From a candidate division WOR-3 bacterium (GTDB lineage Bacteria; Hydrothermota; Hydrothermia; B15-G9; WFZT01): 34,014 bases of DNA. The translations under genes and the position numbers were made by a program. Positions 11,649 to 29,410 of this stretch are shown here, piece by piece; positions within the stretch are counted from its first letter, which is position 1; every line of letters begins with the position of its first letter. Under the pieces are notes generated by a model, which saw only the letters and a program-made list of their open reading frames with translations, made no database searches and was not told where the DNA came from. Where the stretch lies: assembly GCA_027053075.1 (NCBI GenBank), contig JALUEE010000085.1, positions 1 to 34,014 of the forward strand. The letters are read 5' to 3'.

Positions 11649-12062
11649 TTATTCCTCCTCGGAAGGAATTTTCAAAAGTGGCAAAAATAGAGGCGGATAG
11701 CCCATTTTCGCAAAAAGTGTCGAAACTGTTTCTCTCAAATATGGCCATCCATGGAGAATTGCGCTGGACTTAGCGTAAGTTTCAACATGCTCCGAATTCA
11801 AAAGCTCTGCATCATCAACGTGGTAATCGAGTTGCTGGGTAATAAGCACCTTAAAGGCTATTTTCCTTTTTAACCTACCAATAAGTTGCAAAGTTTGTGT
11901 GATCTCAAAGCCATTTTCTTCGTCTATTGAGTAAGAATAACTGAATTCGAGCTTTAAACTGGGGAGCTCGTCTTTATATCTTATACGGTTATCAACCATG
12001 AGTTTGACGATAAAAATATCTTTCAACTCAGTGGAATTTACAAATTCAGAATATTTATCCAT
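11649..12062 (-). CDS. SecB-like chaperone (TA-associated)
   Basis: 137 aa with the C-terminal SecB-type motif AILHGWPYLRETVSTLFAKMGYPPLFLPLL. ATG 12062 follows GAGGTG. Downstream of hicAB. Confidence 0.8.
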   Translation of the reverse strand: MDKYSEFVNSTELKDIFIVKLMVDNRIRYKDELPSLKLEFSYSYSIDEENGFEITQTLQLIGRLKRKIAFKVLITQQLDYHVDDAELLNSEHVETYAKSSAILHGWPYLRETVSTLFAKMGYPPLFLPLLKIPSEEE

Positions 12063-12172
12063 TCTTTCACCTCTCAAGTCTCAAGCTGGAATAATTTTTC
12101 TACCAGTTGCCTGCTTTTTAGTAACGACAAAATCTTTTACTTTTAATGACTTCCAGCCCTCCTGAGTTTGAG

Positions 12173-12607
12173 TTAGAGTATTCGTTTTAATAGGCTTTTA
12201 ATCTCCTCTATTTCTTTTTTAATCCCCATCTCGCTTTCATATCTACCCATGGCGTAGGATATCAATTTCAGGATGAATGAATTGAGGCTTATACCTTCCT
12301 CCTGAGCCAATTCGACAAGCTTTTTGTGTAAAGAAGGGGGTAGTCTCAGCAGAAGTCGTCCACTAAAATTCCTTTCTGCCATAGGTTCTGGCAATTTTTT
12401 ACCCCTTTTGATTGCAGTTTCTATGTAAAGTTCTTTTGCCTCGTCAAGCATTTTAAGGACTTCTTCTAAAGTTTCACCGTAAGTTAGACATCCGGGTAGC
12501 TCTTTTATCCAGGCAACATACCCCCCTTCCGGGTCAGGTTCAATTTCAATTCTGTAAGGTTTTTTCATATATTTTTTAACCAGTTCACGAATTTTTTTGT
12601 CTTTCAT
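12173..12607 (-). CDS. hicB: HicB-family antitoxin with RHH-type domain
   Basis: EGGYVAWIKELPGCLTYGETLEE and FSGRLLLRLPPSLHKKLVELAQEEGISLN. Confidence 0.93.
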   Translation of the reverse strand: MKDKKIRELVKKYMKKPYRIEIEPDPEGGYVAWIKELPGCLTYGETLEEVLKMLDEAKELYIETAIKRGKKLPEPMAERNFSGRLLLRLPPSLHKKLVELAQEEGISLNSFILKLISYAMGRYESEMGIKKEIEEIKSLLKRIL

Positions 12608-12872
12608 ACCAATCCTCCAGGTTTAAAATTTTTGCAACTTTTCTCAAATAAACTCGTTTAACTCTGCGGCCCTTGATGGTTGGAATTGTAATCTGGTCAT
12701 CTTCGTAATCCACTCCCTCAACGGGGTTGGTGAGAACAAAGATGTTATGACTTCCCTTTTTATTAACAAGTTCAAAACCAAATGCTTCAAGGATTTTTGC
12801 CAATTCATCGTATGAAAACTCTGCAGGAAATCTGAGTAATCTCTCAACCCTTTTTAAAAGTGATTTTCCCAT
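12585..12872 (-). CDS. hicA: HicA-family toxin (mRNA interferase)
   Basis: LEAFGF..KGSHNIF..ITIP. Basic 95 aa protein overlapping the hicB start. Confidence 0.92.
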   Translation of the reverse strand: MGKSLLKRVERLLRFPAEFSYDELAKILEAFGFELVNKKGSHNIFVLTNPVEGVDYEDDQITIPTIKGRRVKRVYLRKVAKILNLEDWYERQKNS

Positions 12873-12876
12873 TTAG

Positions 12877-12913
12877 TATCATATACGATATCACATGAAA
12901 CTAAGAGTGTCAA
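12877..12913 (-). promoter_or_regulatory. hicAB promoter with overlapping palindromic operator
   Basis: TTGACA (12913-12908), 17 nt, TATCGT (12890-12885). Near-palindrome TATCGTA/TATGATA (12890-12877) covers the -10 element. Confidence 0.65.
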
Positions 12914-13093
12914 GTAGTGGAAGAGTTTGCGAGAGACAAAAGAATCTAAGTATTCCCTTCCTTTCGGGAAGGAGTAGGTAGGGAAAATGGAGAAAGAAAA
13001 GTGGCTTAAAATATTAGAAAATTTGCCGTTTTTAGCATAAATTACGGGTGAGAATTTTTAAAAATGCACAACATCAATCACAAATTCAAAAAA

Positions 13094-13299
13094 TCCCTCC
13101 CCCACAAGCTCAGCTTGTGGGGGAGGGCAAGGGAGGGGGCATTCCGCTTGAAAAAATAGAAAATTTATGTGTATCCCTCACCCCGACCCTCTCCCACTTC
13201 GTGGGAGAGGGAGATTAGTTGATTGAGATTTTGCCAGATGTGACCCCTCACCACAATCCTCTCCCCGCCAAAAATTTATGCGGGGAGAGGAAGTTTTTT
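13094..13299. repeat. Composite three-hairpin repeat, homologous to 1069-1281
   Basis: CCCTCCCCCACAAGC-TCA-GCTTGTGGGGGAGGG..GGGAGGGGGCATTCCGCTT; CCCTCACCCCGACCCTCTCCCAC-TTC-GTGGGAGAGGG; AGATGTGACCCCTCAC..TCCTCTCCCCGC..GCGGGGAGAGGAAGTTTT. Confidence 0.9.
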
Positions 13300-13522
13300 C
13301 TTAGTCAGGTAAATTCTTGCCAGTGTTTCAAAAAATTCTCCAATGGCCATGTATCTCTTAAGCCTATCTTTCGGCGAGGAAGGATGGGTCAATAAAATCT
13401 CTTGCGTATTTTATGCGTGAGATGACATCGATATGAGTAAATGGTGTAACCAGCATTGATAAGCCCAGGGTGACATCATTCCCATCCAATTTCTCCCACT
13501 CAGGGCTTATAATAAGCAAACT

Positions 13523-16943: not shown

Positions 16944-17075
16944 AAACTTCCTTTCTCCACATAAATTCTCTGTGGGGAGAGGTCAGGTGAGGGGTTACAA
17001 CTGAATTTTTAAAAATTATCAAGCGGAAGACCTTCTCCTCACGTACTTCGTGCGTGGATGAGGATGGGTGAGGGC
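16944..17075. repeat. Inverted copy of the palindromic repeat cluster
   Basis: The reverse complement gives AGTTGTAACCCCTCACCTGACCTCTCCCCACA..TGTGGAGAAAGGAAGTTT and TTCCGCTTGA, plus a unit with a C-TTC-G loop (17040-17056). Confidence 0.8.
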
Positions 17076-17138: not shown

Positions 17139-19487
17139 ATGATTGCAACAGCTCTTTTGGCCTTAAGTTTTACATTTACCCCACCACCATCTATTCACAA
17201 AATCCAGTATGAACAGTATAAAAATTTCAAGTTGCCTGATGTTGGCAACCAGGTTCCAAAGATCCCCCTCCAGCCCCGTATGAAAAGCCTGTACAAAACA
17301 GTCTATGGGTTTCTGCCCTACTGGCAGCTCTCAAGCTACACATTAATTCACTGGGACCTTATTAGTCATCTTGCAGCATTTGGCATTGAGTTAGACGGTA
17401 ATGGTAATGTTACAAACAGGCATGGATGGGTCTCCAACTGGGCAGCAGTGATAGACTCTGCCCATGCGCATGGAGTGCATGTCCATCTGGTTATAATTAT
17501 TTTTAACAGCGACAACATTCACAGCATTTTGACCAATCCAACAGCACGGCAGAATGCAATAAATACCATCAAAAACGAAGTATTGAACGGACAGGTTGAA
17601 GGAGCCAATCTTGACCTTGAAGTTCCCTACTCCTCAGATAGAAATGCTCTCAATAACTTTGTAACAATGCTCCATGATACCCTTCAGGCACATGGTAAAG
17701 AGCTTACAATCTGTGTTACCGCTGTCAACTGGAACGATCGATTTGACGTTGCCACACTTGCAGCAAATACCGAAGGTCTCTTTATCATGGGATATGACTA
17801 TTTCTGGAGTGGCAGTGGGACAGCCGGCCCGGTTTCTCCCCTTACAGGTTATACTTACAACGTAACAAGCACTGTAAACTATTACGTGGCAAATTCCAAT
17901 GGCCATCCGGAAAAAATCATTCTTGGTGTGCCTTATTATGGCTATAAATGGCCGACATACTCTGATGCCCCGGGTTCGGCCACACGAGGTCGTGGCCGTG
18001 CTGTCTTTTACCAGCAGGCGATCTCAGAAGCCCAGTCTTACGGTCTCCTATGGGATGATTACTCCCAGACTCCATGGTACAGATACTATGTTAATGGTGA
18101 TGGATGGTATCAGACCTGGTTTGATAATGATTCAAGTCTCGGCTTGAAATGGGACCTTGTAAACAATGCCAACATTCAGGGCACAGGAATGTGGGCCCTT
18201 ACCTATGATGGCACAAGAAGTGAACTCTGGAATGAGCTTGCTCGCCATTTTGCCCATGGGACTCCCCCGGGACAGCCATCGGGCTTTATGGTTAGATTGA
18301 CCGGACCCAATAAAATTCAGCTTGAATGGTATCCTGACAGCGGAGCGACTTATTATGATGTTTACATGAGCACAGACGGTGAGAATTTCAGCTACTACAC
18401 GACCACCACAGGGCCATCATTTCAGGATAGAAATGTTCCCGCTGGAGAGATGAGGTTCTATAAGGTGAGAGCGGGCAATCCCTTTGGCGTATCTGGATTT
18501 ACAGAAGTACTCGGTGCAGTGTCTTCCACTTCACCCAATAATGTTTTGATTGTGAATGGATTCGACCGAGTGGGAGGGACTCATAACACATTTGACTTTA
18601 TCAGAGAGCATGGAATTGCAATGCACGAGATTGGGGCCAGATTTAATTCTACATCCAATGAAAGAGTAGAGGATGGTTCGGTTAATTTGACAGACTATCA
18701 AGCAGTTGACTGGATTCTTGGTGAGGAGGGAACTTCTACGCAATCGTTCTCTCCTGCGGAGCAGACAGCAGTTGAAGCCTACCTTGAGGCCGGCGGTAAG
18801 CTTTTTGTATCCGGCTCCGAGATCGGTTACGATCTCTGGGAAAGAGGGGATTCTACTGACCATCTCTTTTATCACAATTATCTCAAGGCCAATTATCTCG
18901 GTGACGACGCCGGCACCTATTTCGCAGTTGGAACAGCGGATGGCATTTTTAACGGTCTGGATACCCTGCAGTTTGATGATGGTAGATGGCACTACGATGT
19001 GGATTATCCCGACGGAGTAGGGCCTTATGGCGGGTCGGTCTCAAGTATGGTTTATGTCGGTGGAACAGGATGGTCAGCTGGCATTCAGTATGAAGGTACT
19101 TTCGGGAATAGTTCCACTCCGGGGAAGCTGGTTTACCTGGGATTCCCTTTTGAGTCTATTTTGAATCACTATTTGAGGAAAATGGTGATGTATAGGGTGC
19201 TGAGCTATTTTGGTCTCAATGTGTATGTCGCCGAGGGCTCTTCTCATTTAACGAGTGGGATAAAACTCTATCCCAATCCTGCCGGAAGGACTCTTTATGT
19301 CAGTTTACCTGCCAATGCCAGAAAGGTAGAAGTGTATGATATATCTGGCAGAAAGATTGTGTCTAAATGGGTTAGAGGAAACTCTACGGTTTCTCTCGAC
19401 TTGAAAAATCTACCTTCCGGGATTTACCATTTAACAGTTAAGAACCGCGATGGTTCTTTGAAAACATCCCGCTTCATAAGAAGATGA
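17139..19487 (+). CDS. Glycoside hydrolase family 18 protein with FN3-like domain and T9SS-type CTD
   Basis: GFLPYW, GANLDLE (DxE), IMGYDY, KIILGVPYYG, GMWAL. FN3-like segment. CTD LYPNP..VYDISGRKI..LPSGIY. Confidence 0.9.
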   Translation: MIATALLALSFTFTPPPSIHKIQYEQYKNFKLPDVGNQVPKIPLQPRMKSLYKTVYGFLPYWQLSSYTLIHWDLISHLAAFGIELDGNGNVTNRHGWVSNWAAVIDSAHAHGVHVHLVIIIFNSDNIHSILTNPTARQNAINTIKNEVLNGQVEGANLDLEVPYSSDRNALNNFVTMLHDTLQAHGKELTICVTAVNWNDRFDVATLAANTEGLFIMGYDYFWSGSGTAGPVSPLTGYTYNVTSTVNYYVANSNGHPEKIILGVPYYGYKWPTYSDAPGSATRGRGRAVFYQQAISEAQSYGLLWDDYSQTPWYRYYVNGDGWYQTWFDNDSSLGLKWDLVNNANIQGTGMWALTYDGTRSELWNELARHFAHGTPPGQPSGFMVRLTGPNKIQLEWYPDSGATYYDVYMSTDGENFSYYTTTTGPSFQDRNVPAGEMRFYKVRAGNPFGVSGFTEVLGAVSSTSPNNVLIVNGFDRVGGTHNTFDFIREHGIAMHEIGARFNSTSNERVEDGSVNLTDYQAVDWILGEEGTSTQSFSPAEQTAVEAYLEAGGKLFVSGSEIGYDLWERGDSTDHLFYHNYLKANYLGDDAGTYFAVGTADGIFNGLDTLQFDDGRWHYDVDYPDGVGPYGGSVSSMVYVGGTGWSAGIQYEGTFGNSSTPGKLVYLGFPFESILNHYLRKMVMYRVLSYFGLNVYVAEGSSHLTSGIKLYPNPAGRTLYVSLPANARKVEVYDISGRKIVSKWVRGNSTVSLDLKNLPSGIYHLTVKNRDGSLKTSRFIRR

Positions 19488-19524
19488 CCAGCCAATCTTT
19501 TCCAGAAAATAAAAGGAGGTGTTT

Positions 19525-20061
19525 ATGAGAAGGTTGCTGTTAACTATATTTATCTTTTCCACCCTGGTGTACGTAACAGGGTGTAAGGAATCAATAAAAG
19601 ACCCGGAGGATGGCTACTTCAAGGGCCGTGTTGTTGATACCTCCGGAAATCCCATTGATAGTGTCCGCGTAGCAACATTCCCACCTCATATGTCAACCTA
19701 CACAAATTCCAATGGTTACTTTGAGTTAAGAGCATTCCCACGTGTTTACAGACTTGACCTTAGAAAGGGAAAGTTTTTCGTTACAAGGGTTGAGACCGTG
19801 GGCGGAGAAATCGATACGGTTGAGATAGGAATAATCGCATCTCAGACTCGTGACACAACATATATGAGTATTGATACAGTTGGAGGGACCGTGATAGAAA
19901 CAACTGTAGTTCGTACAGTGATTGACTCCTGTTTTTACCATTCAGTTTCAACTGATTCTGTGGATTTGCAACCCGGTCAGACCTACGATTATGGAAATAT
20001 AACTATGGATACAGCAAGAATATACATTGAAACCGTAGATACGACGGTAGATACCCTGTAA
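19525..20061 (+). CDS. Lipoprotein with carboxypeptidase-regulatory-like domain
   Basis: Lipobox VTG-C and KGRVVDTSGNPI..TYTNSNGYFEL. ATG 19525 follows AGGAGG. Confidence 0.78.
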   Translation: MRRLLLTIFIFSTLVYVTGCKESIKDPEDGYFKGRVVDTSGNPIDSVRVATFPPHMSTYTNSNGYFELRAFPRVYRLDLRKGKFFVTRVETVGGEIDTVEIGIIASQTRDTTYMSIDTVGGTVIETTVVRTVIDSCFYHSVSTDSVDLQPGQTYDYGNITMDTARIYIETVDTTVDTL

Positions 20062-20080
20062 TGAAAAAGGAGGAATTTTT

Positions 20081-22705
20081 ATGAGAAAACTTTTGTTATC
20101 TCTCTTGTTCATAGGGGCACTATTTGCCGGCGAAACAGGTAAAATCGCCGGTAGGGTAGTGGATGCCTCGACAGGTGAACCACTTCCAGGAGTTAATGTG
20201 GTGATTCTTGGGACCACTATGGGAGCATCTACTGACCTTAATGGATACTATTTCATTATTAATGTGCCACCCGGTGTTTATAGTGTTAAAGCCTCAATAA
20301 TTGGTTATACCCCCGTTATTCAGGAAAGTGTTGTGGTACATACTGACCAGACTGCCTATGTAAACTTTAAATTAAAGCAGACCGTTATAAAGGCAAAACC
20401 TGTGGTTGTTAAGGCGAAACGAGAGATAGTGAAGAAAGACGTGACTGCGAGTGTTATCACAACAGATAAACAGGATTTGCAGAAAATACCGGTAGAAACA
20501 GTTACCGGTATTATTTCGATGAAAGCTGGAGTTACCACCGGCCCTGGTGGGGCTATCCACGTTAGAGGTGGCCGCTCCGGTGAGGTTGCCTATCTAATTG
20601 ATGGAATACCAATTGTGGACCCTTATTTGAACGGCCTTGCCGTTTATGTTCCTACAAACATCATTAAGGAAATGGAGCTTGTTGCGGGAACATTTAATGC
20701 TGAGTACGGTAACGCGATGTCTGGAGTGGTTAATATTGTTACTGATGAGGGTTCAAACAAGTTTAGAGGGTCAATAAGTGCATATGTAGGAGACAGGCTC
20801 AGCAACCACACAAGAATCTTTGAGCACATTGACCAGTTTGATTTAACTAATGATAAAGATATTCGCTGGAACATTTCTGGCCCACTACCATTTAAAAACA
20901 AATTGACCTACTACTTCGGCGGCAGATACTATAAAACTGCGGGATGGCTGTACGGCATAAATTACTATCTACCCACAGATACACGATATGATACAATAAT
21001 TCATGGACATGGTGATGGCTCATATGTGGCGATGAACCCGGAAACTGAGAATCTCTGGAATTTTAAACTTACTGCGAGACCCACAAGTTCTATTAAAGTA
21101 TCTCTTACAAATTTGTACACTTATCTGCATTACAAGAGCTATATCCATTCGCTGAAATGGGAACCTCTTGCCACTCCTCATCATCTTAAAGAAGCCTGGC
21201 AGAGCATTTTATCTCTCAATCAAATACTTTCGCCAAAAACCTTCTATTCATTCAGATTGAGCTATTACTGGTCACAGTTACGCCAGTTTGTTTATGATTC
21301 ATATTACTGTCTGGGATACAAATTCCCATATTGGGGATACTTTGTTTCAGCCCATCAGTTTAGAAGAGGTGGAGTTTCAACTTCATGGTTTAAGAGATAC
21401 ACAAAGAGTTATGTGGCAAGATTTGACATTACAAGTCAGATTACTCACATCCACATGATCAAAACCGGAGTCCTGTTTACAAAGTATGACCTATACAGAT
21501 TTTCAATGAGTGTTCAGAAACCTGATACCACTCCACCTGCATTGCCTGTGAGGGATACTATTGGGGCTCTGGATCATTATCTTCACCATCCTATTGAGTT
21601 CTCTGCTTATATTCAGGACAAGATGGAATTCAAGGACATGGTTGTAAACGCAGGAATCCGCTTTGACTGGTATAACCCGAAATGGAAAACATGGGTAGAT
21701 GATTCAGCTCCATCGCCAATGATATGGGATTCCACAAGAGGACCGTTCCCTGGATATAAAGAGGTCAGTCCTAAGTGGCAGCTTTCACCCAGAATTGGAA
21801 TAGCTTTCCCTATCTCAGCTTCAGGAATTTTCCATTTTTCATATGGTCATTTCTTCCAGATTCCGCCTTATTATTACCTATACAGGAACTCTGGATTCAA
21901 ATGGGCTGAATCAGGTGGTAGACTTCTTACTAACAGGACCATCATGGGGAATGCAGATCTTAAGCCACAAAGAACTGTGGCATACGAAGTAGGGTTCAAA
22001 CAGGCACTTAGTGATAACTTTGGTCTCGAGGTCATTGGCTATTACAAAGACGTAAGAGACCTTTTGTCAACTAAACTCGTACCCACGTATGTTTCGGGTG
22101 ACCACTATATGGTCTATTCTAACAGGGATTATGCGAATATAAGGGGTATTTCCTTCTATCTGAAATTCAGGAATCTCGGTATGTTCTCAGGTGAGATTGA
22201 TTACACCTATCAGATAGCCGAGGGTTCAAACTCTGGTCCAAGAGACCTTTTCGCAGATCTTAGACACGGTTATGAACCACCAAAGTACATGGTCCCTCTT
22301 GATTGGGATGAGAGACACAGGATCAACTTTACTATCACGATGAATCAGCCTAATCAGTGGACAATTTCACTTACGGGAACCTACGGAAGTGGTCTGCCCT
22401 ACACGCCAACTGATACAACGGGTCAAGCACTTAGAGGTGGCGAGAATTCAGGAAGAAAGCCACCCACATATAACTTTGATCTAAGTGCTGCTAAATATAT
22501 GAAATTCAGAAATCTGAGATATACCCTTTCACTAAAGGTATACAACCTGCTTGACACCAAGAATGAAATCCTCGTGTACACCGATACTGGAAGGGCAACA
22601 TACACTCACCAGACAAGACCCACCGCTGATCCTGGCTATTACATAAGACCTTATTACTTCAGTCCACCGAGGCTCGTGAAAATAGGCCTTTCAGTTAACT
22701 TTTAA
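20081..22705 (+). CDS. TonB-dependent receptor with N-terminal carboxypeptidase-like domain
   Basis: TGKIAGRVVDASTGEPLPGVNV; plug HVRGGRSGEVAYLIDG..FNAEYGNAMSGVVNIVT; SPRIGIAFP; NADLKPQRT; C-terminal GLSVNF. Confidence 0.93.
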   Translation: MRKLLLSLLFIGALFAGETGKIAGRVVDASTGEPLPGVNVVILGTTMGASTDLNGYYFIINVPPGVYSVKASIIGYTPVIQESVVVHTDQTAYVNFKLKQTVIKAKPVVVKAKREIVKKDVTASVITTDKQDLQKIPVETVTGIISMKAGVTTGPGGAIHVRGGRSGEVAYLIDGIPIVDPYLNGLAVYVPTNIIKEMELVAGTFNAEYGNAMSGVVNIVTDEGSNKFRGSISAYVGDRLSNHTRIFEHIDQFDLTNDKDIRWNISGPLPFKNKLTYYFGGRYYKTAGWLYGINYYLPTDTRYDTIIHGHGDGSYVAMNPETENLWNFKLTARPTSSIKVSLTNLYTYLHYKSYIHSLKWEPLATPHHLKEAWQSILSLNQILSPKTFYSFRLSYYWSQLRQFVYDSYYCLGYKFPYWGYFVSAHQFRRGGVSTSWFKRYTKSYVARFDITSQITHIHMIKTGVLFTKYDLYRFSMSVQKPDTTPPALPVRDTIGALDHYLHHPIEFSAYIQDKMEFKDMVVNAGIRFDWYNPKWKTWVDDSAPSPMIWDSTRGPFPGYKEVSPKWQLSPRIGIAFPISASGIFHFSYGHFFQIPPYYYLYRNSGFKWAESGGRLLTNRTIMGNADLKPQRTVAYEVGFKQALSDNFGLEVIGYYKDVRDLLSTKLVPTYVSGDHYMVYSNRDYANIRGISFYLKFRNLGMFSGEIDYTYQIAEGSNSGPRDLFADLRHGYEPPKYMVPLDWDERHRINFTITMNQPNQWTISLTGTYGSGLPYTPTDTTGQALRGGENSGRKPPTYNFDLSAAKYMKFRNLRYTLSLKVYNLLDTKNEILVYTDTGRATYTHQTRPTADPGYYIRPYYFSPPRLVKIGLSVNF

Positions 22706-22722
22706 AGGAGGAGTAAAGAAAA

Positions 22723-25700
22723 ATGAAAAAACTTTTACTTGCCATATTTGTTTTTGGGATGGCCTATGCTGGTATACCTTACCAGAAGTTCCTTCCCCCG
22801 GATGTGAAGCTTACTCCAGCACAAATTGGTAAGGGAGCTGATCTTAAGGGGCATGCAGATCGTAGAGCGGGTATTCATGATGGTAACAGAATTAGACTAA
22901 AGTTCTTTAACACTCTTTCGATAGGAGGTCCTGATAGAGTTAATCCGTGGCCAAGGCTTGAGTGGCCTGCTGGTTCTGGACATGAATACATTTATGAGAT
23001 TGGCCCTTTATTTGGCGCCCGTGTGAAAGCATACGACCCTAATACTCAGGACTCAGTGTGGATCAGCATACTTGATGATCCTATTCAAGATGGTGGTGAT
23101 GAAGACTTTGAGCCCTTACCAGGTTACTTTAATCCCAATAAGCAGAGTGTAGCTTTCTCGGATAAGGATACCCTATGGCCTCAAACATGGCCCCCGTTCG
23201 TCGGTATATTAGGAGACACTATAAGGAATCTTTCTGGTAGGTGGCCTGGGCAATTTGATTTTATCCCTTGGGATAGGAATGGTAATCCGATTCATGATTC
23301 AGTATCAGTCAATGTCGTTGCAGATCAGGAGAGTTATTTTGCTGCGACAGATTCTGCAAGTACAAAATTTTTGCCCGGTAACAATATGGGAAATCCGTAT
23401 TATGATCCCGGTAACAACATGCATGGCCTTGGATTAAAGGTGGTCGCAAGAGGTTATCAATGGACTGCTCAGCCGGTTCAGGATGTTATTGTCTGGGTAT
23501 ACGAGGTGACAAACCTTTCTGACAAAGATATTGACTCTATGGTTATTGGGTATTACACAGACGTTAGAATTGGTGGCCCCGGTTCTGACTTCCAGGATGA
23601 TATGTATGGATTCGATACCACTTCTAACATGGTGTACTTCTTCGATTATGACGGTTGGGGAAGAGGAGCAGACGGAAGGCCTTACAAGTGTGGCTGGCTC
23701 GGATTCAAATTTTTGGAGAGCCCTGGAAATCCATACGATGGTATTGACAATGACCATGATGGCATGATTGACGAAAGTCAGCATGATGGTATTGACAACG
23801 ATGGAGACTGGGATCCGACAAAAGACGATGTTGGAAGAGATGGAATACCTGGAACAGGCGACTATGGTGAAAATGATGGGCAGCCAACCCTGGGAGAGCC
23901 TAATTTTGAAGTAATGGATCCAGATGAAAAGGATGAAATGGGGTTGACATCGGTTCGTGATTTTGTGTATGGAACTGGAGGACTCTTTGCCGCGAATGAC
24001 TCAGCTATGATATCTATTATGAGACCAGGCGTCTACCATGTGGATAGAGGACCTGGTGATTTCGTTCTGGTCTTCGGCTCAGGTTTCTTCCCGCTGCATA
24101 AAGGGGAAACGCAGAGATTTTCTATTGCCCTTGTGATGGGAGCAGACTCTGTTGATCTTTATAAGCACGCCTTCAGTGCTCAGGTTATATTTAACAGAAA
24201 CTATCATTTCCCCAAACCTCCTGAGAAGCCGCAGGTCTGGGCGAGAACAGAGAGTGGAAAAGTACATCTATATTGGGATAACAGGGCAGAGCTTAATCCC
24301 GAATTTGAGGGGTATGCCATTTTCCGTAGTCAGGATAGAGGTGTAACCTGGGGGACTCCTATTACAGACGCTTTCGGAAGGATTGTTTATTGGAGACCTA
24401 TTGCACAGTTTGATAAAATTGACTCCATCACAGGACTTGCTCCTGTAGGGGTTGATGGAGCTTATTTCTATCTGGGTGATGATTCTGGCCTTAGGCACTC
24501 ATGGACAGATACAACGGTAGTTGACGGTGAACACTACTGGTACGCAGTCACAGCATATGCACCTGGTAATGATACACTTGGATTGCCACCGCTAATATCT
24601 TCTGTTTATCCGATAAATGCAAATCCGAGTGTGGTGCATGTAATTCCTAATGGTAATCCTATTGGTTATCACCCTCCACAGATAACCATTGATTCGCTAA
24701 ATTCAAACATTAATGGAACTGGACAGGTTGATTACATGGTTGTAACTCCAGAGGACATAAAGGATGCATCTTACTATATCAAGTTTGATACAACTGGAAA
24801 CGACACTACATGGTCTTTAATTAAAAATGTTAATGGTGTTGATAGCGTGCTAATTTCCAACAGTACTAAAATACATGGTGAGGATGATAACCCCATTGTA
24901 GATGGATTTAGAGTGTCAATTAATACTGATTCACTTGCACCTGATACTAACTATTTCGTGAGAGGCAACAGTAATTTCCATGTCCAGGTTTCTCTCGCCC
25001 GTGGTGGTATAAAGTACCCTGCTGACTATGAGATAGAGTTTGCTGACTCTGGAACTGTTCTCGATTCAGTTTTCTACAATAGTCCAACAAACAAAGCGCC
25101 TGTGAACTTTAGGGTCTGGAGAATAGAGGGTAAGTATCGCTATAGACAGGAAGTAGTATTTATTGATGGAGACCATGATGGGATAATTGCCAATCCTGCA
25201 GGAAGAGATGTTTTGTACCCTGTTCTTACTGACTCAACAGGAAGAATTGTAGCGCGAACATGGAAATTCACCTTTATGGGGCCCGGTACTGGAGCGATCC
25301 CACCGAATTCTGATAGCACCATTCTCTACCTTAAGTTCCACAAGCCATTTACTGAAAGAGACACCATTTACTTTGATACCCATGAGGGCACTACAAATGA
25401 AAACGACATTGTGAAAAATATGAACAAAATAAAAGTTGTGCCGAACCCATACATTCTTGTGTCTGCTTATGAACTCAAGGATCCAACTATTAGAAGAGGA
25501 AGAGGTGCCCGTGAGATTCACTTCATTAACCTACCCCCAGAAGCAACTATCAGAATTTACACTATAACAGGTGAACTGGTTGATGTGCTACATCATGTGC
25601 CAGGAGATCCAGAGTATGTGTCACCTTCTGTGCAGAAGTGGAATCTTTTGAATAAAGATAGTCAGGAAATTGCTTACGGAGTCTATATCTACCATGTGGA

Positions 25701-25761
25701 AGCTATGCTTAACGGTCAGGTAGTTGGAAAATACATCGGAAAATTTGCAGTAATTAAGTAG
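22723..25761 (+). CDS. Large exported protein with Asp-rich Ca-binding-like repeats, FN3-like domain and CTD
   Basis: Signal peptide. DGIDNDHDGMIDE/DGIDNDGD repeats. C-terminus IKVVPNPY..IHFINLP..IRIYTITGELV..GVYIYHV..KFAVIK. Confidence 0.85.
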   Translation: MKKLLLAIFVFGMAYAGIPYQKFLPPDVKLTPAQIGKGADLKGHADRRAGIHDGNRIRLKFFNTLSIGGPDRVNPWPRLEWPAGSGHEYIYEIGPLFGARVKAYDPNTQDSVWISILDDPIQDGGDEDFEPLPGYFNPNKQSVAFSDKDTLWPQTWPPFVGILGDTIRNLSGRWPGQFDFIPWDRNGNPIHDSVSVNVVADQESYFAATDSASTKFLPGNNMGNPYYDPGNNMHGLGLKVVARGYQWTAQPVQDVIVWVYEVTNLSDKDIDSMVIGYYTDVRIGGPGSDFQDDMYGFDTTSNMVYFFDYDGWGRGADGRPYKCGWLGFKFLESPGNPYDGIDNDHDGMIDESQHDGIDNDGDWDPTKDDVGRDGIPGTGDYGENDGQPTLGEPNFEVMDPDEKDEMGLTSVRDFVYGTGGLFAANDSAMISIMRPGVYHVDRGPGDFVLVFGSGFFPLHKGETQRFSIALVMGADSVDLYKHAFSAQVIFNRNYHFPKPPEKPQVWARTESGKVHLYWDNRAELNPEFEGYAIFRSQDRGVTWGTPITDAFGRIVYWRPIAQFDKIDSITGLAPVGVDGAYFYLGDDSGLRHSWTDTTVVDGEHYWYAVTAYAPGNDTLGLPPLISSVYPINANPSVVHVIPNGNPIGYHPPQITIDSLNSNINGTGQVDYMVVTPEDIKDASYYIKFDTTGNDTTWSLIKNVNGVDSVLISNSTKIHGEDDNPIVDGFRVSINTDSLAPDTNYFVRGNSNFHVQVSLARGGIKYPADYEIEFADSGTVLDSVFYNSPTNKAPVNFRVWRIEGKYRYRQEVVFIDGDHDGIIANPAGRDVLYPVLTDSTGRIVARTWKFTFMGPGTGAIPPNSDSTILYLKFHKPFTERDTIYFDTHEGTTNENDIVKNMNKIKVVPNPYILVSAYELKDPTIRRGRGAREIHFINLPPEATIRIYTITGELVDVLHHVPGDPEYVSPSVQKWNLLNKDSQEIAYGVYIYHVEAMLNGQVVGKYIGKFAVIK

Positions 25762-25773
25762 GGAGGACAGGAA

Positions 25774-26784
25774 ATGAAAAAATTCATTCTACTTTTAGCC
25801 TTTTTGGGATTGGGATTTTCACAGACAATCAGTAACACTGGGACAAAGGCTGCCCAGTTTTTGAAAATAGGCCCCGGTGCACGACCAGTGGGTATGGGAG
25901 AAGCCTTTGTTGCTGTTGCTGATGGCGCCCTTGCCACATACTGGAATCCAGCAGGACTTGCACAGACTACAGGATATTCCTATTTCTTTACTAATGCAAA
26001 ATGGCTTGCAGGAATCCAGTATAACTACCTTGCTTTTGCAGTACCCATTCCCAAACGTGGTGTTATCGGTGGATCCTTATCCTATCTTGGAACAGACAAT
26101 ATGGAAGTTACAACAGAAACGAATCCTGAAGGTACTGGTGAGTATTTTAGATATTCCGGGCTTGCCCTTGCTTTTAGCTATGGAAAAATGTTTACGGACA
26201 AATTTTCCTTCGGATTTAATGCGAAGTACATCTACGAGAAGTTAAAGCTTATGTCAGCTTCGGGAATGGCAGTTGATATTGGACTTAAATACCAGACAGA
26301 ATGGCATAAATTTACAATCGGAATGAACTTCCAGAACTTTGGAAACAAGATGAGATTGACCGGTGAGGATACAAGATTCATCTATTATCCTGACCCCAAT
26401 CGTGACCCCAATTCTCAGCCAAATGTAATTGCTGACCTCAGAACTGAATCTTATGATTTGCCTATGAGATTTCTTGTAGGAATTGCACTTGTACCATACG
26501 AGACGAAGTTTGCTAAAATGCTTCTTGCCATTGATGCTGTTCATCCAAATGATAACACCGAGTATATAAATATTGGTGCTGAACTTTCACTTGCCAACCT
26601 CGCTTATATAAGAATTGGTCGAGAGCACAACTTTATGAGAGATGCTGAAGGTGGATTTACATTTGGTGGAGGTGTTAAATATAGACGGCCGGGAACTCCT
26701 CTGAATTTCTCCATCGATTTTGCAATGTCAAACTATGGAAGATTGCAGAATGTGAAGTTCATTTCGGTGGGTTTGGCATTTTGA
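25774..26784 (+). CDS. PorV/PorQ-family outer-membrane beta-barrel
   Basis: AQFLKIGPGARPVGMGEAFVAVAD..YWNPAGL, amphipathic strands, terminal Phe. Confidence 0.9.
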   Translation: MKKFILLLAFLGLGFSQTISNTGTKAAQFLKIGPGARPVGMGEAFVAVADGALATYWNPAGLAQTTGYSYFFTNAKWLAGIQYNYLAFAVPIPKRGVIGGSLSYLGTDNMEVTTETNPEGTGEYFRYSGLALAFSYGKMFTDKFSFGFNAKYIYEKLKLMSASGMAVDIGLKYQTEWHKFTIGMNFQNFGNKMRLTGEDTRFIYYPDPNRDPNSQPNVIADLRTESYDLPMRFLVGIALVPYETKFAKMLLAIDAVHPNDNTEYINIGAELSLANLAYIRIGREHNFMRDAEGGFTFGGGVKYRRPGTPLNFSIDFAMSNYGRLQNVKFISVGLAF

Positions 26785-26853
26785 GCATGATAAGAAATCT
26801 GAAGGTAAAAGAAAAATTTCAGATTGTTAGATTTTCTGAGGTGACTAACGCCT

Positions 26854-26890
26854 ACCTTCTCCCCACATATGCTTTATGTGGGGAGAAGGT
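26854..26890. repeat. Palindromic repeat, perfect 16 bp stem
   Basis: ACCTTCTCCCCACATA-TGCTT-TATGTGGGGAGAAGGT. Confidence 0.85.
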
Positions 26891-26923
26891 GATGGTAAGT
26901 TACCAAATGCTCTATCGTGAGCC

Positions 26924-26952
26924 TTTACAGTTGGAAAGTTGGGAAATATAAT
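26924..26952 (+). promoter_or_regulatory. Sigma70 promoter of the FG-GAP gene
   Basis: TTTACA, 17 nt, TATAAT, then AAGGAGGT RBS. Confidence 0.7.
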
Positions 26953-26977
26953 AAAAATTAAAAAAGGAGGTATAAAT

Positions 26978-28762
26978 ATGAAGAAGTTGGTAGGTGTATT
27001 GGCAGCCCTCCTTCTGGTGGGTTCTCTGGCTGCAGGAGACGGGGATAATGTTTTCCGTCTCGCAACAACAGATCTGCAGAATGATGCGCTCTTTGCAGAC
27101 AGTGTGTATAACGAGTATCAGAGATCCATGGTAGTTGGTAGTGATCTTGACCAGGACGGAATGAAGGAGATTATCATAACAGATTACAGAACAGTGAGTG
27201 ATTCTCAGCACGGTAGAATCATAGTTTATGAGGTATCCGGTGACAACACGCTACGTCAGGCATGGGTTTACAACATGCCCTCTAATGGTTATTACTCCAA
27301 TGTTAGAAGTGTTGCCACAGGAGATCTTGATGGCAATGGCAGAGGAGAAATCATTGTTGCAGTGACAGGTGGCTCCGGTGACACTTCAGCTGCACATGTT
27401 GGCGTATGGGTCTTTGAGTGGGATGGAGTTTCCGGAAGTGACAACTATCAGCTCGTTGCGCAGATTAATGATTTTGCCACCTATGTTGATTCAACAGGAC
27501 AGGTTGTTTATCCCGATAGGTACAGATGTGAAGATATGGCTGTCGGAGATTTCGACAATGACGGAAAAGATGAGGTTCTCTGGGTGAATAACGGTGGTAC
27601 AGCATTCGATAACGCATACATATTCTCTATCGATGGAGAATTTTCTACCGGATTCTATTCAACCGTAGTTGAAACAGTCTTTAAACGTACCGAACTTGGT
27701 TTCGGTGGAAGTACAGCATCAGGATTTGGACCTGTTGATCTTGATGGCGATGGCAATCCTGAAGGTGTCATTACCATATGGAACCATGTGGGAGTTCAGA
27801 TATTCGAATCCGATGCCCCTGATCACTATGTTCTGAAATATCACGCAGAGGGACTTGATCCTGAAGACAGATATCCTTATGCAAAATCGGTTGGTGCATA
27901 TGACCTTAATGGTGATGGAGTAAAAGAACTTGTTATTGGTGCCCTCTTAAGAGGTAGAGTTCACATTCTCGAGCCGGTAGGTGGAGATGTGGACTCCATG
28001 GCACATTATATGCCTGAATGGACAGTTATTGACACTGACACGACAGGAGCAGTTGATACAACAGCATTATTCAGAGTCTATGGAATGAAGGCAGGTGACC
28101 CTGATCACGGACCTGGTCATGACAATGGAGACATCGTTTTGAGTGACCTGAACAAGCATATCTATGATATCGAGTACAACGGTGGTGACTTTGGAGATAC
28201 TGCCAGCTACACCGTGTATGACATTTATGATGTATTCCCAGCAGACACATTCATCACAACCGATTCTACAGGTGCCCCGGATACAACAGTATGCAGTTTC
28301 TATCCTGGTCCTACACTTGCACTTGGCAATGACCTCGACGGTGATGGTGCAAATGAAATACTTTATGGAACGTACGTTGGTCATCGTCCTCCTGATTCCT
28401 TCACAGTGCAGACCGGATTCCTCAATGTACTCGAGTTCAATGGTCTCGGCGTGAGCGAGGGCTGGAAGATTGTTGGTAACAAGCCCGTGGTGCTTTACCA
28501 GAACATGCCTAATCCGTTTGTAAACCATACTGCCATCAGATTTGCTGTCAGGAAAGCAGGTAATGTAGAAATTGCAGTCTTTGATCTCACAGGAAGAAAG
28601 GTTAAAGAACTCGCTAATAGAAGATTTGCTGCAGGAACATACTCTGTGAGCTGGAATGGTAGAAGCGAAAGCGGATCTGTCCTTCCTGCCGGTGTTTACT
28701 TCTACACCATCAAGTACAATGGAACGACTCAAACGACAAGAAAGCTCGTGATTTCGAGATAA
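26978..28762 (+). CDS. FG-GAP/VCBS-repeat beta-propeller protein with FlgD-like T9SS CTD
   Basis: Six clear D(L/F)(D/N)x(D/N)GxxE loops plus one degenerate. CTD QNMPNPF..FDLTGRKV..WNGRSESG..GVYFY. ATG 26978 follows AGGAGGT. Confidence 0.9.
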   Translation: MKKLVGVLAALLLVGSLAAGDGDNVFRLATTDLQNDALFADSVYNEYQRSMVVGSDLDQDGMKEIIITDYRTVSDSQHGRIIVYEVSGDNTLRQAWVYNMPSNGYYSNVRSVATGDLDGNGRGEIIVAVTGGSGDTSAAHVGVWVFEWDGVSGSDNYQLVAQINDFATYVDSTGQVVYPDRYRCEDMAVGDFDNDGKDEVLWVNNGGTAFDNAYIFSIDGEFSTGFYSTVVETVFKRTELGFGGSTASGFGPVDLDGDGNPEGVITIWNHVGVQIFESDAPDHYVLKYHAEGLDPEDRYPYAKSVGAYDLNGDGVKELVIGALLRGRVHILEPVGGDVDSMAHYMPEWTVIDTDTTGAVDTTALFRVYGMKAGDPDHGPGHDNGDIVLSDLNKHIYDIEYNGGDFGDTASYTVYDIYDVFPADTFITTDSTGAPDTTVCSFYPGPTLALGNDLDGDGANEILYGTYVGHRPPDSFTVQTGFLNVLEFNGLGVSEGWKIVGNKPVVLYQNMPNPFVNHTAIRFAVRKAGNVEIAVFDLTGRKVKELANRRFAAGTYSVSWNGRSESGSVLPAGVYFYTIKYNGTTQTTRKLVISR

Positions 28763-28818: not shown

Positions 28819-29147
28819 ATTTACTAAAGCCAAAATTTATCCCCACAACTCCCCTACACGTTTTGGACCCTTACGAAGAGAAGATTGAGGGATAACATCT
28901 TAATTTTTATCCCAAAATCCATCAGTCTCCACCTTTCACGCTTCGGAAAAAAATGTGTTGAGGGCATATATCTTGCTTCGCAAGCGGAGAAGAGTAAAAT
29001 GCTGTACTCAAATTTAACATGTGCGGCGAATTTTTGTCGCAATATTGCGAATTTTTAAATTTGGATGTCAAGGTAGTGGTACGCGTAAAATGATTGAATA
29101 TCAATGGTTTTGGGAGATAGTGTCAAAGTTGAGTATAAAATAGAAAA

Positions 29148-29201
29148 CCTCTCCCCGCATACATTTTTGCGGGGAGAGGATCAAGGTGAGGGGTTACATC
29201 T
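29148..29201. repeat. Palindromic repeat unit (inverted orientation)
   Basis: CCTCTCCCCGCA..TGCGGGGAGAGG, then GTGAGGGGTTACATCT (29186-29201), the exact reverse complement of 1145-1160. Confidence 0.85.
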
Positions 29202-29410
29202 GATATTTTTAATCAAAATTCACCGTAAATCCCTCTCCAGTTCTACAGTAGAAGGAGCTTTCAGATTTCTAAGATTTTCAGGGAGGAAGTGCAACTCGCA
29301 CTTCCAGCCTTATTAGACAAAAATTTTATTCCGCAAATCAAAATTTCTGCTCCAATTCCAGTGGCCCGCACATATTATCCAAAAATTTAAGAATCCTAAT
29401 CACTCCCATC

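What the first reader, a model, noticed from the sequence alone, without database searches (positions are those of the whole stretch)
11649..12913. HicA-HicB-SecB tripartite toxin-antitoxin-chaperone (TAC) module
Seen: hicA, hicB and a SecB-like gene are co-oriented behind one promoter with a palindromic operator, inserted between lysA and the mutase operon. Known: in TAC systems (M. tuberculosis HigBA-Rv1957, E. coli prophage HigBAC/CmdTAC) a SecB-like chaperone stabilises the antitoxin, and some act in phage defence. HicAB-type TACs are much less studied. A defence role here is inference.
Basis: partly seen in the sequence, partly recalled or inferred. Interest (0 to 1): 0.7.

Follow-up and report, generated by a model that had tools for sequence, protein, structure and literature searches.

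The report
Toxin-antitoxin module missing its chaperone tail
A hydrothermal-vent bacterium carries a known type of three-gene toxin-antitoxin-chaperone module, but a one-base deletion cuts off the antitoxin's tail that likely binds the chaperone, so this copy would run as an ordinary toxin-antitoxin pair with an idle chaperone.

Summary
The three genes are real: hicA (Pfam E 3e-9), hicB (1.5e-15) and a SecB-fold protein whose best structural match is the TAC chaperone Rv1957 (Z 16.8, TM 0.83). It is not housekeeping SecB: 7 of 64 genomes of the class have one, and each genome's best hit lies behind hicB. HicAB-type TACs are already known and tested (Methylomonas, Bordes 2016).

The window's hicB lacks one base at 12178/12179 and stops 32 codons early. 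The lost tail (aromatic, basic, ending Pro-Ala) lies out of frame before secB. It is in frame in the sister species G004, in contig L143 and in three other sequencing runs. The likely source run agrees with the window.

Removing this tail (ChAD) makes other TAC antitoxins chaperone-independent, so this copy likely works as plain HicAB with an orphaned chaperone. SecB-less HicAB pairs sit in the same HicB clade as the TAC-type ones, which suggests TAC-to-TA decay.

Nothing here supports phage defence: no defence island, and no viral-contig hit for the chaperone. Verdict: known system, modest twist, interest 0.35.

The parts
12885..12913 (-). Predicted sigma-70 promoter: -35 TTGACA (12913-12908), 17-nt spacer, extended -10 TG-TATCGT (12890-12885). 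It lies 12 nt before the hicA ATG with no Shine-Dalgarno, so hicA mRNA would be nearly leaderless (inferred).
   Evidence: identical in G004 up to the -35 and unrelated beyond it
12873..12904 (.). Imperfect inverted repeat (10-nt arms, 9 paired, 12-nt spacer) over the -10 and start site; candidate HicB operator
   Evidence: GATAC/GATAT-centred palindromes at 5 of 7 more distant hicA promoters; distal arm altered in run X2
12585..12872 (-). hicA toxin, 95 aa, intact, with the G40-S41-H42 motif
   Evidence: PF07927 E 3e-9; motif invariant in 9 of 9 aligned; only HicA in the genome
12614..12618 (-). GGAGG ribosome-binding site of hicB, inside the end of hicA
   Evidence: seen in the sequence
12173..12607 (-). 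hicB antitoxin as encoded here, 144 aa: toxin-binding domain, ribbon-helix-helix domain and a helix, ending at a premature TAA
   Evidence: PF15919 and PF05534; PDB HicB hits E 7e-7; 175 aa in G004 and L143
12178..12179 (-). Site of the one-base deletion relative to G004, L143 and runs X2, X3, X10
12081..12179 (-). Out-of-frame 32-codon tail plus its TGA; ChAD-like (Trp, Phe, many Lys/Arg, ends Pro-Ala)
   Evidence: same peptide as the G004 and L143 tail, 3 synonymous and 0 non-synonymous changes
12072..12078 (-). 7-nt tandem duplication after the tail's stop, private to the window; the secB ribosome-binding site GAGGTG (12073-12068) is kept
11649..12062 (-). SecB-like TAC chaperone, 137 aa, intact; convergent with lysA (8-nt gap)
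   Evidence: PF02556 E 4.5e-7; model pLDDT 93; Foldseek 5mtw TM 0.83; VIA Z 16.8

Best explanation
This is a HicA-HicB-SecB operon of the toxin-antitoxin-chaperone (TAC) type in which a one-base deletion stops HicB 32 codons early, so it likely now works as an ordinary, chaperone-independent HicAB pair beside an orphaned chaperone. Intact form (G004, L143; every step inferred from tested TACs): HicA is an RNase held inactive by the HicB N-terminal domain. The HicB ribbon-helix-helix domain represses the promoter. The aromatic, basic tail makes HicB unstable unless the SecB tetramer binds it. When other unfolded proteins draw SecB away, the Ala-ended tail would be taken by ClpXP and HicA released. 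Window form: the deletion and the intact toxin-binding and DNA-binding domains are shown. That tail-less HicB neutralises HicA without SecB, and that the SecB-gated trigger is disconnected, are inferred. The lesion is probably recent.
For: Deletion: the only two indels in about 5,050 aligned bases against G004 are this base and a 7-nt duplication 100 nt away. Run X1, probably the source, agrees with the window in one gap-free contig at depth 52, while X2, X3 and X10 all carry the base. Tail under selection until recently: 3 of 3 changes are synonymous in the tail frame, about 0.012 by chance. Tail goes with SecB: among 104 non-redundant HicB loci, 11 of 11 with SecB have at least 44 residues after the GxSxN motif (median 66), against 35 of 93 without SecB (median 32); the window has 35, and G004 has 66. 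In 21 other SecB-linked rows the first plausible secB start lies between 26 nt before and 17 nt after the hicB stop; here it is 110 nt. All 6 intact SecB-linked tails in the class end in Ala, and the genome has clpX (593 bits, cut-off 371). Precedent: deleting ChAD makes M. tuberculosis HigA1 and E. coli NT1F31 HigA chaperone-independent (PMC5105189 section 5; bioRxiv 2024.02.24.581848 passages). SecB-less HicAB pairs of G007 and G010 fall in the same clade (100/99) as seven SecB-linked ones.
Against: No function was tested. The deletion is seen in one sample only, probably the source of the window, so it is not independently confirmed, and contigs drop minority alleles. secB is still intact and under purifying selection (19 synonymous, 7 non-synonymous changes against G004), which fits a recent lesion but also a continuing role. 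Long C-terminal extensions also occur without SecB (35 of 93). The 44-residue threshold was set after seeing the data, and related loci are not independent. Tails share no alignable motif, so calling this one a ChAD rests on position, composition and co-occurrence. In E. coli, tail-less Mtb HigA1 neutralised less well than wild type with chaperone. The order inside the clade is unresolved, so the direction TAC to TA is not proven.
Confidence: 0.7

Rival explanations
1. The missing base is an assembly or sequencing error, or a minority state, and the organism has an intact, working HicAB TAC.
For: G004, L143 and runs X2, X3, X10 all have the base. The tail peptide and secB are otherwise undamaged.
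Against: The separately assembled contig of run X1 matches the window with no gap at depth 52. The site is AA versus A, not a long homopolymer. No other coding indel occurs in about 5 kb. X2, X3 and X10 also lack the 7-nt duplication and share many G004-type letters, so they are the sister lineage.
Confidence: 0.1
2. The shortened HicB still depends on SecB through its remaining C-terminal helix, so the module is still chaperone-controlled.
For: secB is intact and conserved. One SecB-linked HicB has only 44 residues after the motif (L074).
Against: All aromatic residues of the extension lie in the lost part, and aromatic residues drive ChAD binding in tested systems. The short end resembles the SecB-less HicB of G007.
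Confidence: 0.09
3. A low-level -1 ribosomal frameshift yields both tailed and tail-less HicB, tuning chaperone dependence.
For: The tail frame is open from codon 137 on and shows no non-synonymous change. A short A run lies at codons 140-142.
Against: There is no X XXY YYZ heptamer at codons 137-144 and only weak structure downstream (-10.9 kcal/mol over 90 nt). The same A run is present in G004, where no shift is needed.
Confidence: 0.06
4. The third gene is the cell's housekeeping export SecB, which happens to lie next to a HicAB pair.
For: It is the only SecB in a 95% complete genome. TAC chaperones can replace E. coli SecB when overexpressed, so a side role in export is possible.
Against: It scores 22-24 bits at best against secB equivalog cut-offs of 103-244. 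It is found in only 7 of 64 genomes of the class and 39 of 272 of the phylum. Of 30 loci inspected, 25 have a HicB, MqsA or HTH antitoxin gene directly upstream. It moves between loci together with hicAB, and it is structurally closer to Rv1957 (Z 16.8) than to E. coli SecB (Z 12.0).
Confidence: 0.03

Closest known systems
Mmet-TAC, the HicA-HicB-SecB system of Methylomonas methanica MC09 (Bordes et al. 2016, PMC5105189; sections 5 and 8 read in full, plus passages)
   Same: Same three families in the same order; C-terminal HicB extension (residues 119-159 there); toxin inhibition shown to need the chaperone.
   Different: The window's HicB tail is out of frame; the host is a vent bacterium outside Proteobacteria. 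I did not compare the Mmet sequences directly.
M. tuberculosis HigB1-HigA1-Rv1957 TAC (PDB 5MTW)
   Same: Best structural and profile match for the chaperone (TM 0.83, Z 16.8, rmsd 2.2 over 132 residues; HMM E 2.6e-8). Its engineered delta-C42 antitoxin is the laboratory analogue of the window's allele.
   Different: Different toxin and antitoxin families (HigBA); 18% identity; tail intact in nature.
Phage-defence TACs of E. coli: HigBAC NT1F31, CmdTAC / PD-T4-9, MqsRAC (bioRxiv 2024.02.24.581848 and PMC11618068; passages read)
   Same: SecB-like third gene (PADLOC PD-T4-9_C E 9e-8); Ala-ended antitoxin tail in the intact relatives.
   Different: HigBAC NT1F31 and one CmdTAC are prophage-borne, and their defence was tested. 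This locus lies among housekeeping genes, neither toxin nor antitoxin matches PADLOC, and the tail that a phage protein would compete with is lost.
Two-gene HicAB systems with ribbon-helix-helix HicB (Burkholderia, Yersinia; review PMC11594946, passages read)
   Same: HicA Gly-x-His motif, HicB N-terminal toxin-binding domain plus RHH domain, palindrome over the promoter; the likely working state of the window's copy.
   Different: Here a secB-like gene and an out-of-frame tail follow.

Membership tests
TAC systems | Toxin, antitoxin and chaperone genes in that order in one operon | tested here: met
   same order in G001, G002, G004, G011, G023, G065, G116; in G003 hicA lies on another contig
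TAC systems | Third protein has the SecB fold | tested here: met
   model pLDDT 93; top Foldseek hits all SecB family, 5mtw first; Z 16.8 against 5.7 for the first unrelated fold
TAC systems | Chaperone is dedicated, not the solitary export SecB | tested here: met
TAC systems | Antitoxin carries an in-frame C-terminal chaperone-addiction (ChAD) extension | tested here: not met
   Out of frame in the window; met in G004 and L143. I therefore file the window's copy as TAC-derived, not as an intact TAC.
TAC systems | Toxin neutralisation requires the chaperone, which binds the tail | not testable with these tools
   needs rescue assays and pulldown
HicAB type II toxin-antitoxin systems | HicA domain with conserved Gly-x-His | tested here: met
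   PF07927 above cut-off; G40 and H42 invariant; role of these residues from PMC11594946. A PDB sequence search with the HicA profile found no HicA structure.
HicAB type II toxin-antitoxin systems | HicB with N-terminal toxin-binding domain and C-terminal DNA-binding domain | tested here: met
   PF15919 residues 18-76 and PF05534 residues 71-116; PDB HicB hits
HicAB type II toxin-antitoxin systems | RNase toxicity, neutralisation and autorepression | not testable with these tools
   needs experiments
Housekeeping SecB | Scores above the secB equivalog cut-off and is conserved across the lineage | tested here: not met
Anti-phage TACs | Location in a prophage or defence island | tested here: not met
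   24 other window proteins give only generic phospholipase D and ABC-ATPase PADLOC hits; neighbours are lysA and the mutase gene
Anti-phage TACs | Protection against phage | not testable with these tools
   needs phage challenge

The most novel reading that the evidence does not exclude
The window is a natural snapshot of TAC de-addiction. One base removes the tail while toxin, antitoxin core and chaperone stay intact, and secB is lost later, giving the SecB-less HicAB pairs in the same clade (G007, G010) and in a second clade (L071, L160). Single-base switches would let vent populations turn a costly chaperone-gated (possibly anti-phage) toxin off, as the frameshifted hicA of G001 also suggests, making TAC-to-TA reversion a recurrent route.
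Probability: 0.35. Interest if true: 0.5.

Novelty: new variant of a known kind. Interest (0 to 1): 0.35.

Why it matters
TAC systems are thought to arise when a toxin-antitoxin pair gains a tail and a chaperone, and tail removal has been shown with engineered deletions. A natural pair of alleles about 94% identical, one with the tail and one without, plus SecB-less relatives, gives a ready test of the reverse path in the least studied TAC class. It is also a warning for annotation: three intact-looking genes do not make a working TAC. The architecture itself is not new, and the lesion may be a passing strain mutation, hence a modest score.

Tried and rejected
Complex prediction of four SecB copies with HicB residues 140-175 of G004: no verdict (score 0.05, mark 0.32, controls not run); not used either way.
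Single-sequence model of the intact HicB: pLDDT 38, unusable.
Word-indexed homolog search with the chaperone returned only itself; the profile search found 5,320 proteins at E <= 0.001.
Viral contigs: 24 pattern matches, none confirmed. Phage records: 32 HicB matches, all under 60% identity and none covering 80% of the query.
No RNA holder listed. A second laying of contigs from four more runs gave no answer, so the allele was checked in 4 of 13 listed runs.
Programmed frameshift: no canonical signal.
The two indels sum to +6 and put the tail in frame with secB, but a TGA separates them and the tail frame has no ATG, GTG or TTG start; treated as coincidence.
A Trp-containing -1 frame after the G007 hicB stop showed no similarity to the HicB profile (probability 0.1%); unproven.
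No empty site with lysA next to the mutase gene: G001 and G005 have other genes after lysA, and the G002 and G003 contigs end within 100 nt.
Earlier-findings look-ups returned nothing.
Literature: searches showed no report of a natural tail-frameshift allele, judged from listings and the passages read. PMC10865869 (HicA contexts) has no mention of SecB, TAC or chaperone. Subscription journals are mostly absent, and I did not read the supplements of PMC3581621 or PMC5105189, which list TAC systems and may include such cases.

Full report
Observation. Each passes its Pfam cut-off. The best promoter-like site nearby is TTGACA-17-TATCGT at 12913-12885; from there to the ATG the DNA is identical in the sister species G004 and unrelated further upstream. 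A 9-of-10 inverted repeat covers the -10 region, which chance gives in about 1.5% of trials. Palindromes around GATAC or GATAT occur at 5 of 7 more distant hicA promoters. One contig of run X2 breaks the distal arm, so an operator is likely but its exact form is open.

The third gene. A model built on 149 sequences has pLDDT 93. Its best matches are the TAC chaperone Rv1957 (TM 0.83; Z 16.8, rmsd 2.2, 132 residues), then E. coli SecB (Z 12.0). It is the only SecB in the genome but scores far below NCBI's housekeeping secB cut-offs. SecB-like genes occur in 39 of 272 genomes of the phylum and 7 of 64 of the class. Of the 30 loci returned, 9 follow hicB, 3 follow MqsA-type and 13 follow HTH antitoxin genes, 4 follow a HEPN-like pair and 1 is unassigned. 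So this is a dedicated TAC-type chaperone. The closest named HicB relative (L063, 63% identity) is titled Candidatus Hydrothermota, and the runs that hold the DNA are hydrothermal-vent metagenomes where the organism is given. The host lineage is inferred from these.

Mobility. The module is 37% G+C against 44%. HicA-like genes of this type are in 11 of 64 genomes of the class. The three-gene form follows lysA in G000 and G004 and sits at other loci in G001/G003, G002, G011 and G023. G005 of the same genus gave no match for hicA, hicB or secB (96% complete). I found no empty site joining lysA to the mutase gene.

TAC antitoxins carry a C-terminal chaperone-addiction tail (ChAD), rich in aromatic and basic residues (PMC5105189 section 5). 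The window's HicB ends at residue 144, 110 nt before secB. In the -1 frame that gap reads 32 codons with Trp, Phe and many Lys/Arg, ending Pro-Ala, followed by a stop just before the secB ribosome-binding site. In G004 and contig L143 one extra base puts this tail in frame, giving 175 aa. Runs X2, X3 and X10 have the base; run X1, probably the window's source, lacks it in a gap-free contig at depth 52. This base and a neighbouring 7-nt duplication are the only indels in about 5,050 aligned bases against G004. The three nucleotide differences in the tail are all synonymous in the tail frame (about 0.012 by chance), so the lesion looks recent.

Is the tail a ChAD? I took the best 80 of 527 HicB relatives in genomes and the best 80 of 411 in metagenomes. 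Five lacked my anchor motif and were dropped, 30 were open-ended or had under 500 nt downstream, and 104 remained after removing duplicates at 90% identity. All 11 with SecB downstream have at least 44 residues after the GxSxN motif (median 66), against 35 of 93 without (median 32; Mann-Whitney p 5e-4, overstated because kin are not independent, and the threshold is post hoc). Among tails of 44-90 residues, SecB-linked ones hold more aromatic residues in the last 35 positions (mean 3.9, 15 tails; 2.2, 24 tails, seed loci included). The six intact SecB-linked tails in the class end in Ala, like the ClpXP-recognised ends of Mtb HigA1 and CmdA, and the genome has clpX. The tails do not align with each other, as reported for ChADs. 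The assignment is therefore comparative, not shown.

Mechanism. For the intact allele I infer the standard TAC cycle. HicA, with its invariant Gly40-Ser41-His42 (residue roles from PMC11594946), is masked by HicB. HicB needs SecB to stay folded and escape ClpXP, and competition for SecB releases the toxin. For the window's allele the toxin-binding and DNA-binding domains are intact and the tail is gone. Tail deletion made two tested TAC antitoxins work without chaperone, so this copy most likely behaves as a plain HicAB pair (0.70). secB would also lose close coupling to the hicB stop (inferred). Rivals: an error or minority allele (0.10), residual dependence on SecB (0.09), frameshifted double product (0.06) and housekeeping SecB (0.03).

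Evolution. In a tree of 32 selected HicB cores, a clade of 9 (100/99) holds seven SecB-linked copies and the SecB-less G007 and G010. A second clade (98/96) holds six SecB-linked and two SecB-less copies. Loss of tail and chaperone is the simpler reading, but inner branches are weak, the root is a midpoint and I ran no clade test. G001 has a one-base deletion in hicA that a near-identical contig, L145, lacks. Two of the six copies in this genus thus carry a single-base lesion.

Defence. The PADLOC match to CmdC reflects the SecB fold only. The other 24 window proteins scanned show no defence cluster, the chaperone has no confirmed viral-contig hit, and phage HicB matches are distant and partial. 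Defence stays possible for the intact allele by analogy (PMC11618068) but is unsupported here.

Novelty and verdict. HicB-type TACs were catalogued in 2012 (PMC3581621, passages) and one was validated in 2016. The window's copy fails the in-frame-tail test, so I file it as a TAC-derived HicAB-SecB locus: a variant made by one base, not a new architecture. My searches showed no natural case of this kind, within a library that lacks most subscription journals and with supplements unread. Names given to neighbouring genes in relatives' loci are recalled from their sequences, not from a call. Interest 0.35.

Noticed in passing
window 13090-13310; also about 1070-1280, 16944-17003, 29145-29202: Paired-hairpin intergenic repeat (perfect 16-bp inverted repeat at 13095-13127, a second at 13257-13291) with well over 100 partial matches across the genome and many in G004; REP- or MITE-like.
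   Followed up: partly
L034:1498-2746, L038:45-1181, L040:676-1812, L044:489-1851: HEPN-like gene, then a small unassigned protein whose tail ends Ala-Ala or Gly-Ala, then a SecB-like gene, in 4 genomes of the phylum (HEPN E 1e-5 to 0.018). It looks like a HEPN-toxin TAC, a class I did not see in the search listings; no PADLOC match of note. Possibly more novel than the finding itself.
   Followed up: partly
L053:651-887 (G001): hicA has a one-base deletion giving a premature stop about 17 codons early; the near-identical contig L145 is intact.
   Followed up: partly
L025:2672-2818 (G007): After the short, SecB-less hicB, the -1 frame reads a 49-codon stretch with two Trp; it may be a decayed tail. 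No profile support.
   Followed up: partly
L039, L042, L043, L045, L047-L050, L052, L054, L057-L059: Thirteen HTH-antitoxin plus SecB operons in the phylum, seven with a Gp49/RelE-like toxin gene by Pfam; many tails end in Ala-Ala.
   Followed up: no
L169, L195, L188, L218, L183, L088, L129, L076, L138; L176, L180, L181, L207, L168, L175, L185: SecB-less HicB proteins with long C-terminal additions: about 175 residues of unknown helical type, or a LuxR-like HTH (label recalled from the sequence).
   Followed up: no
window 17139-28762: Cluster of secreted and outer-membrane genes: GH18 hydrolase with a Por secretion tail, TonB-dependent receptor, a 1012-aa protein without Pfam match, PorV and an FG-GAP protein.
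   Followed up: no
L041:730-1911 (G254): SecB-like gene behind a 239-aa protein with no clear family (weak CARF-HEPN PADLOC hit, E 0.002).
   Followed up: no
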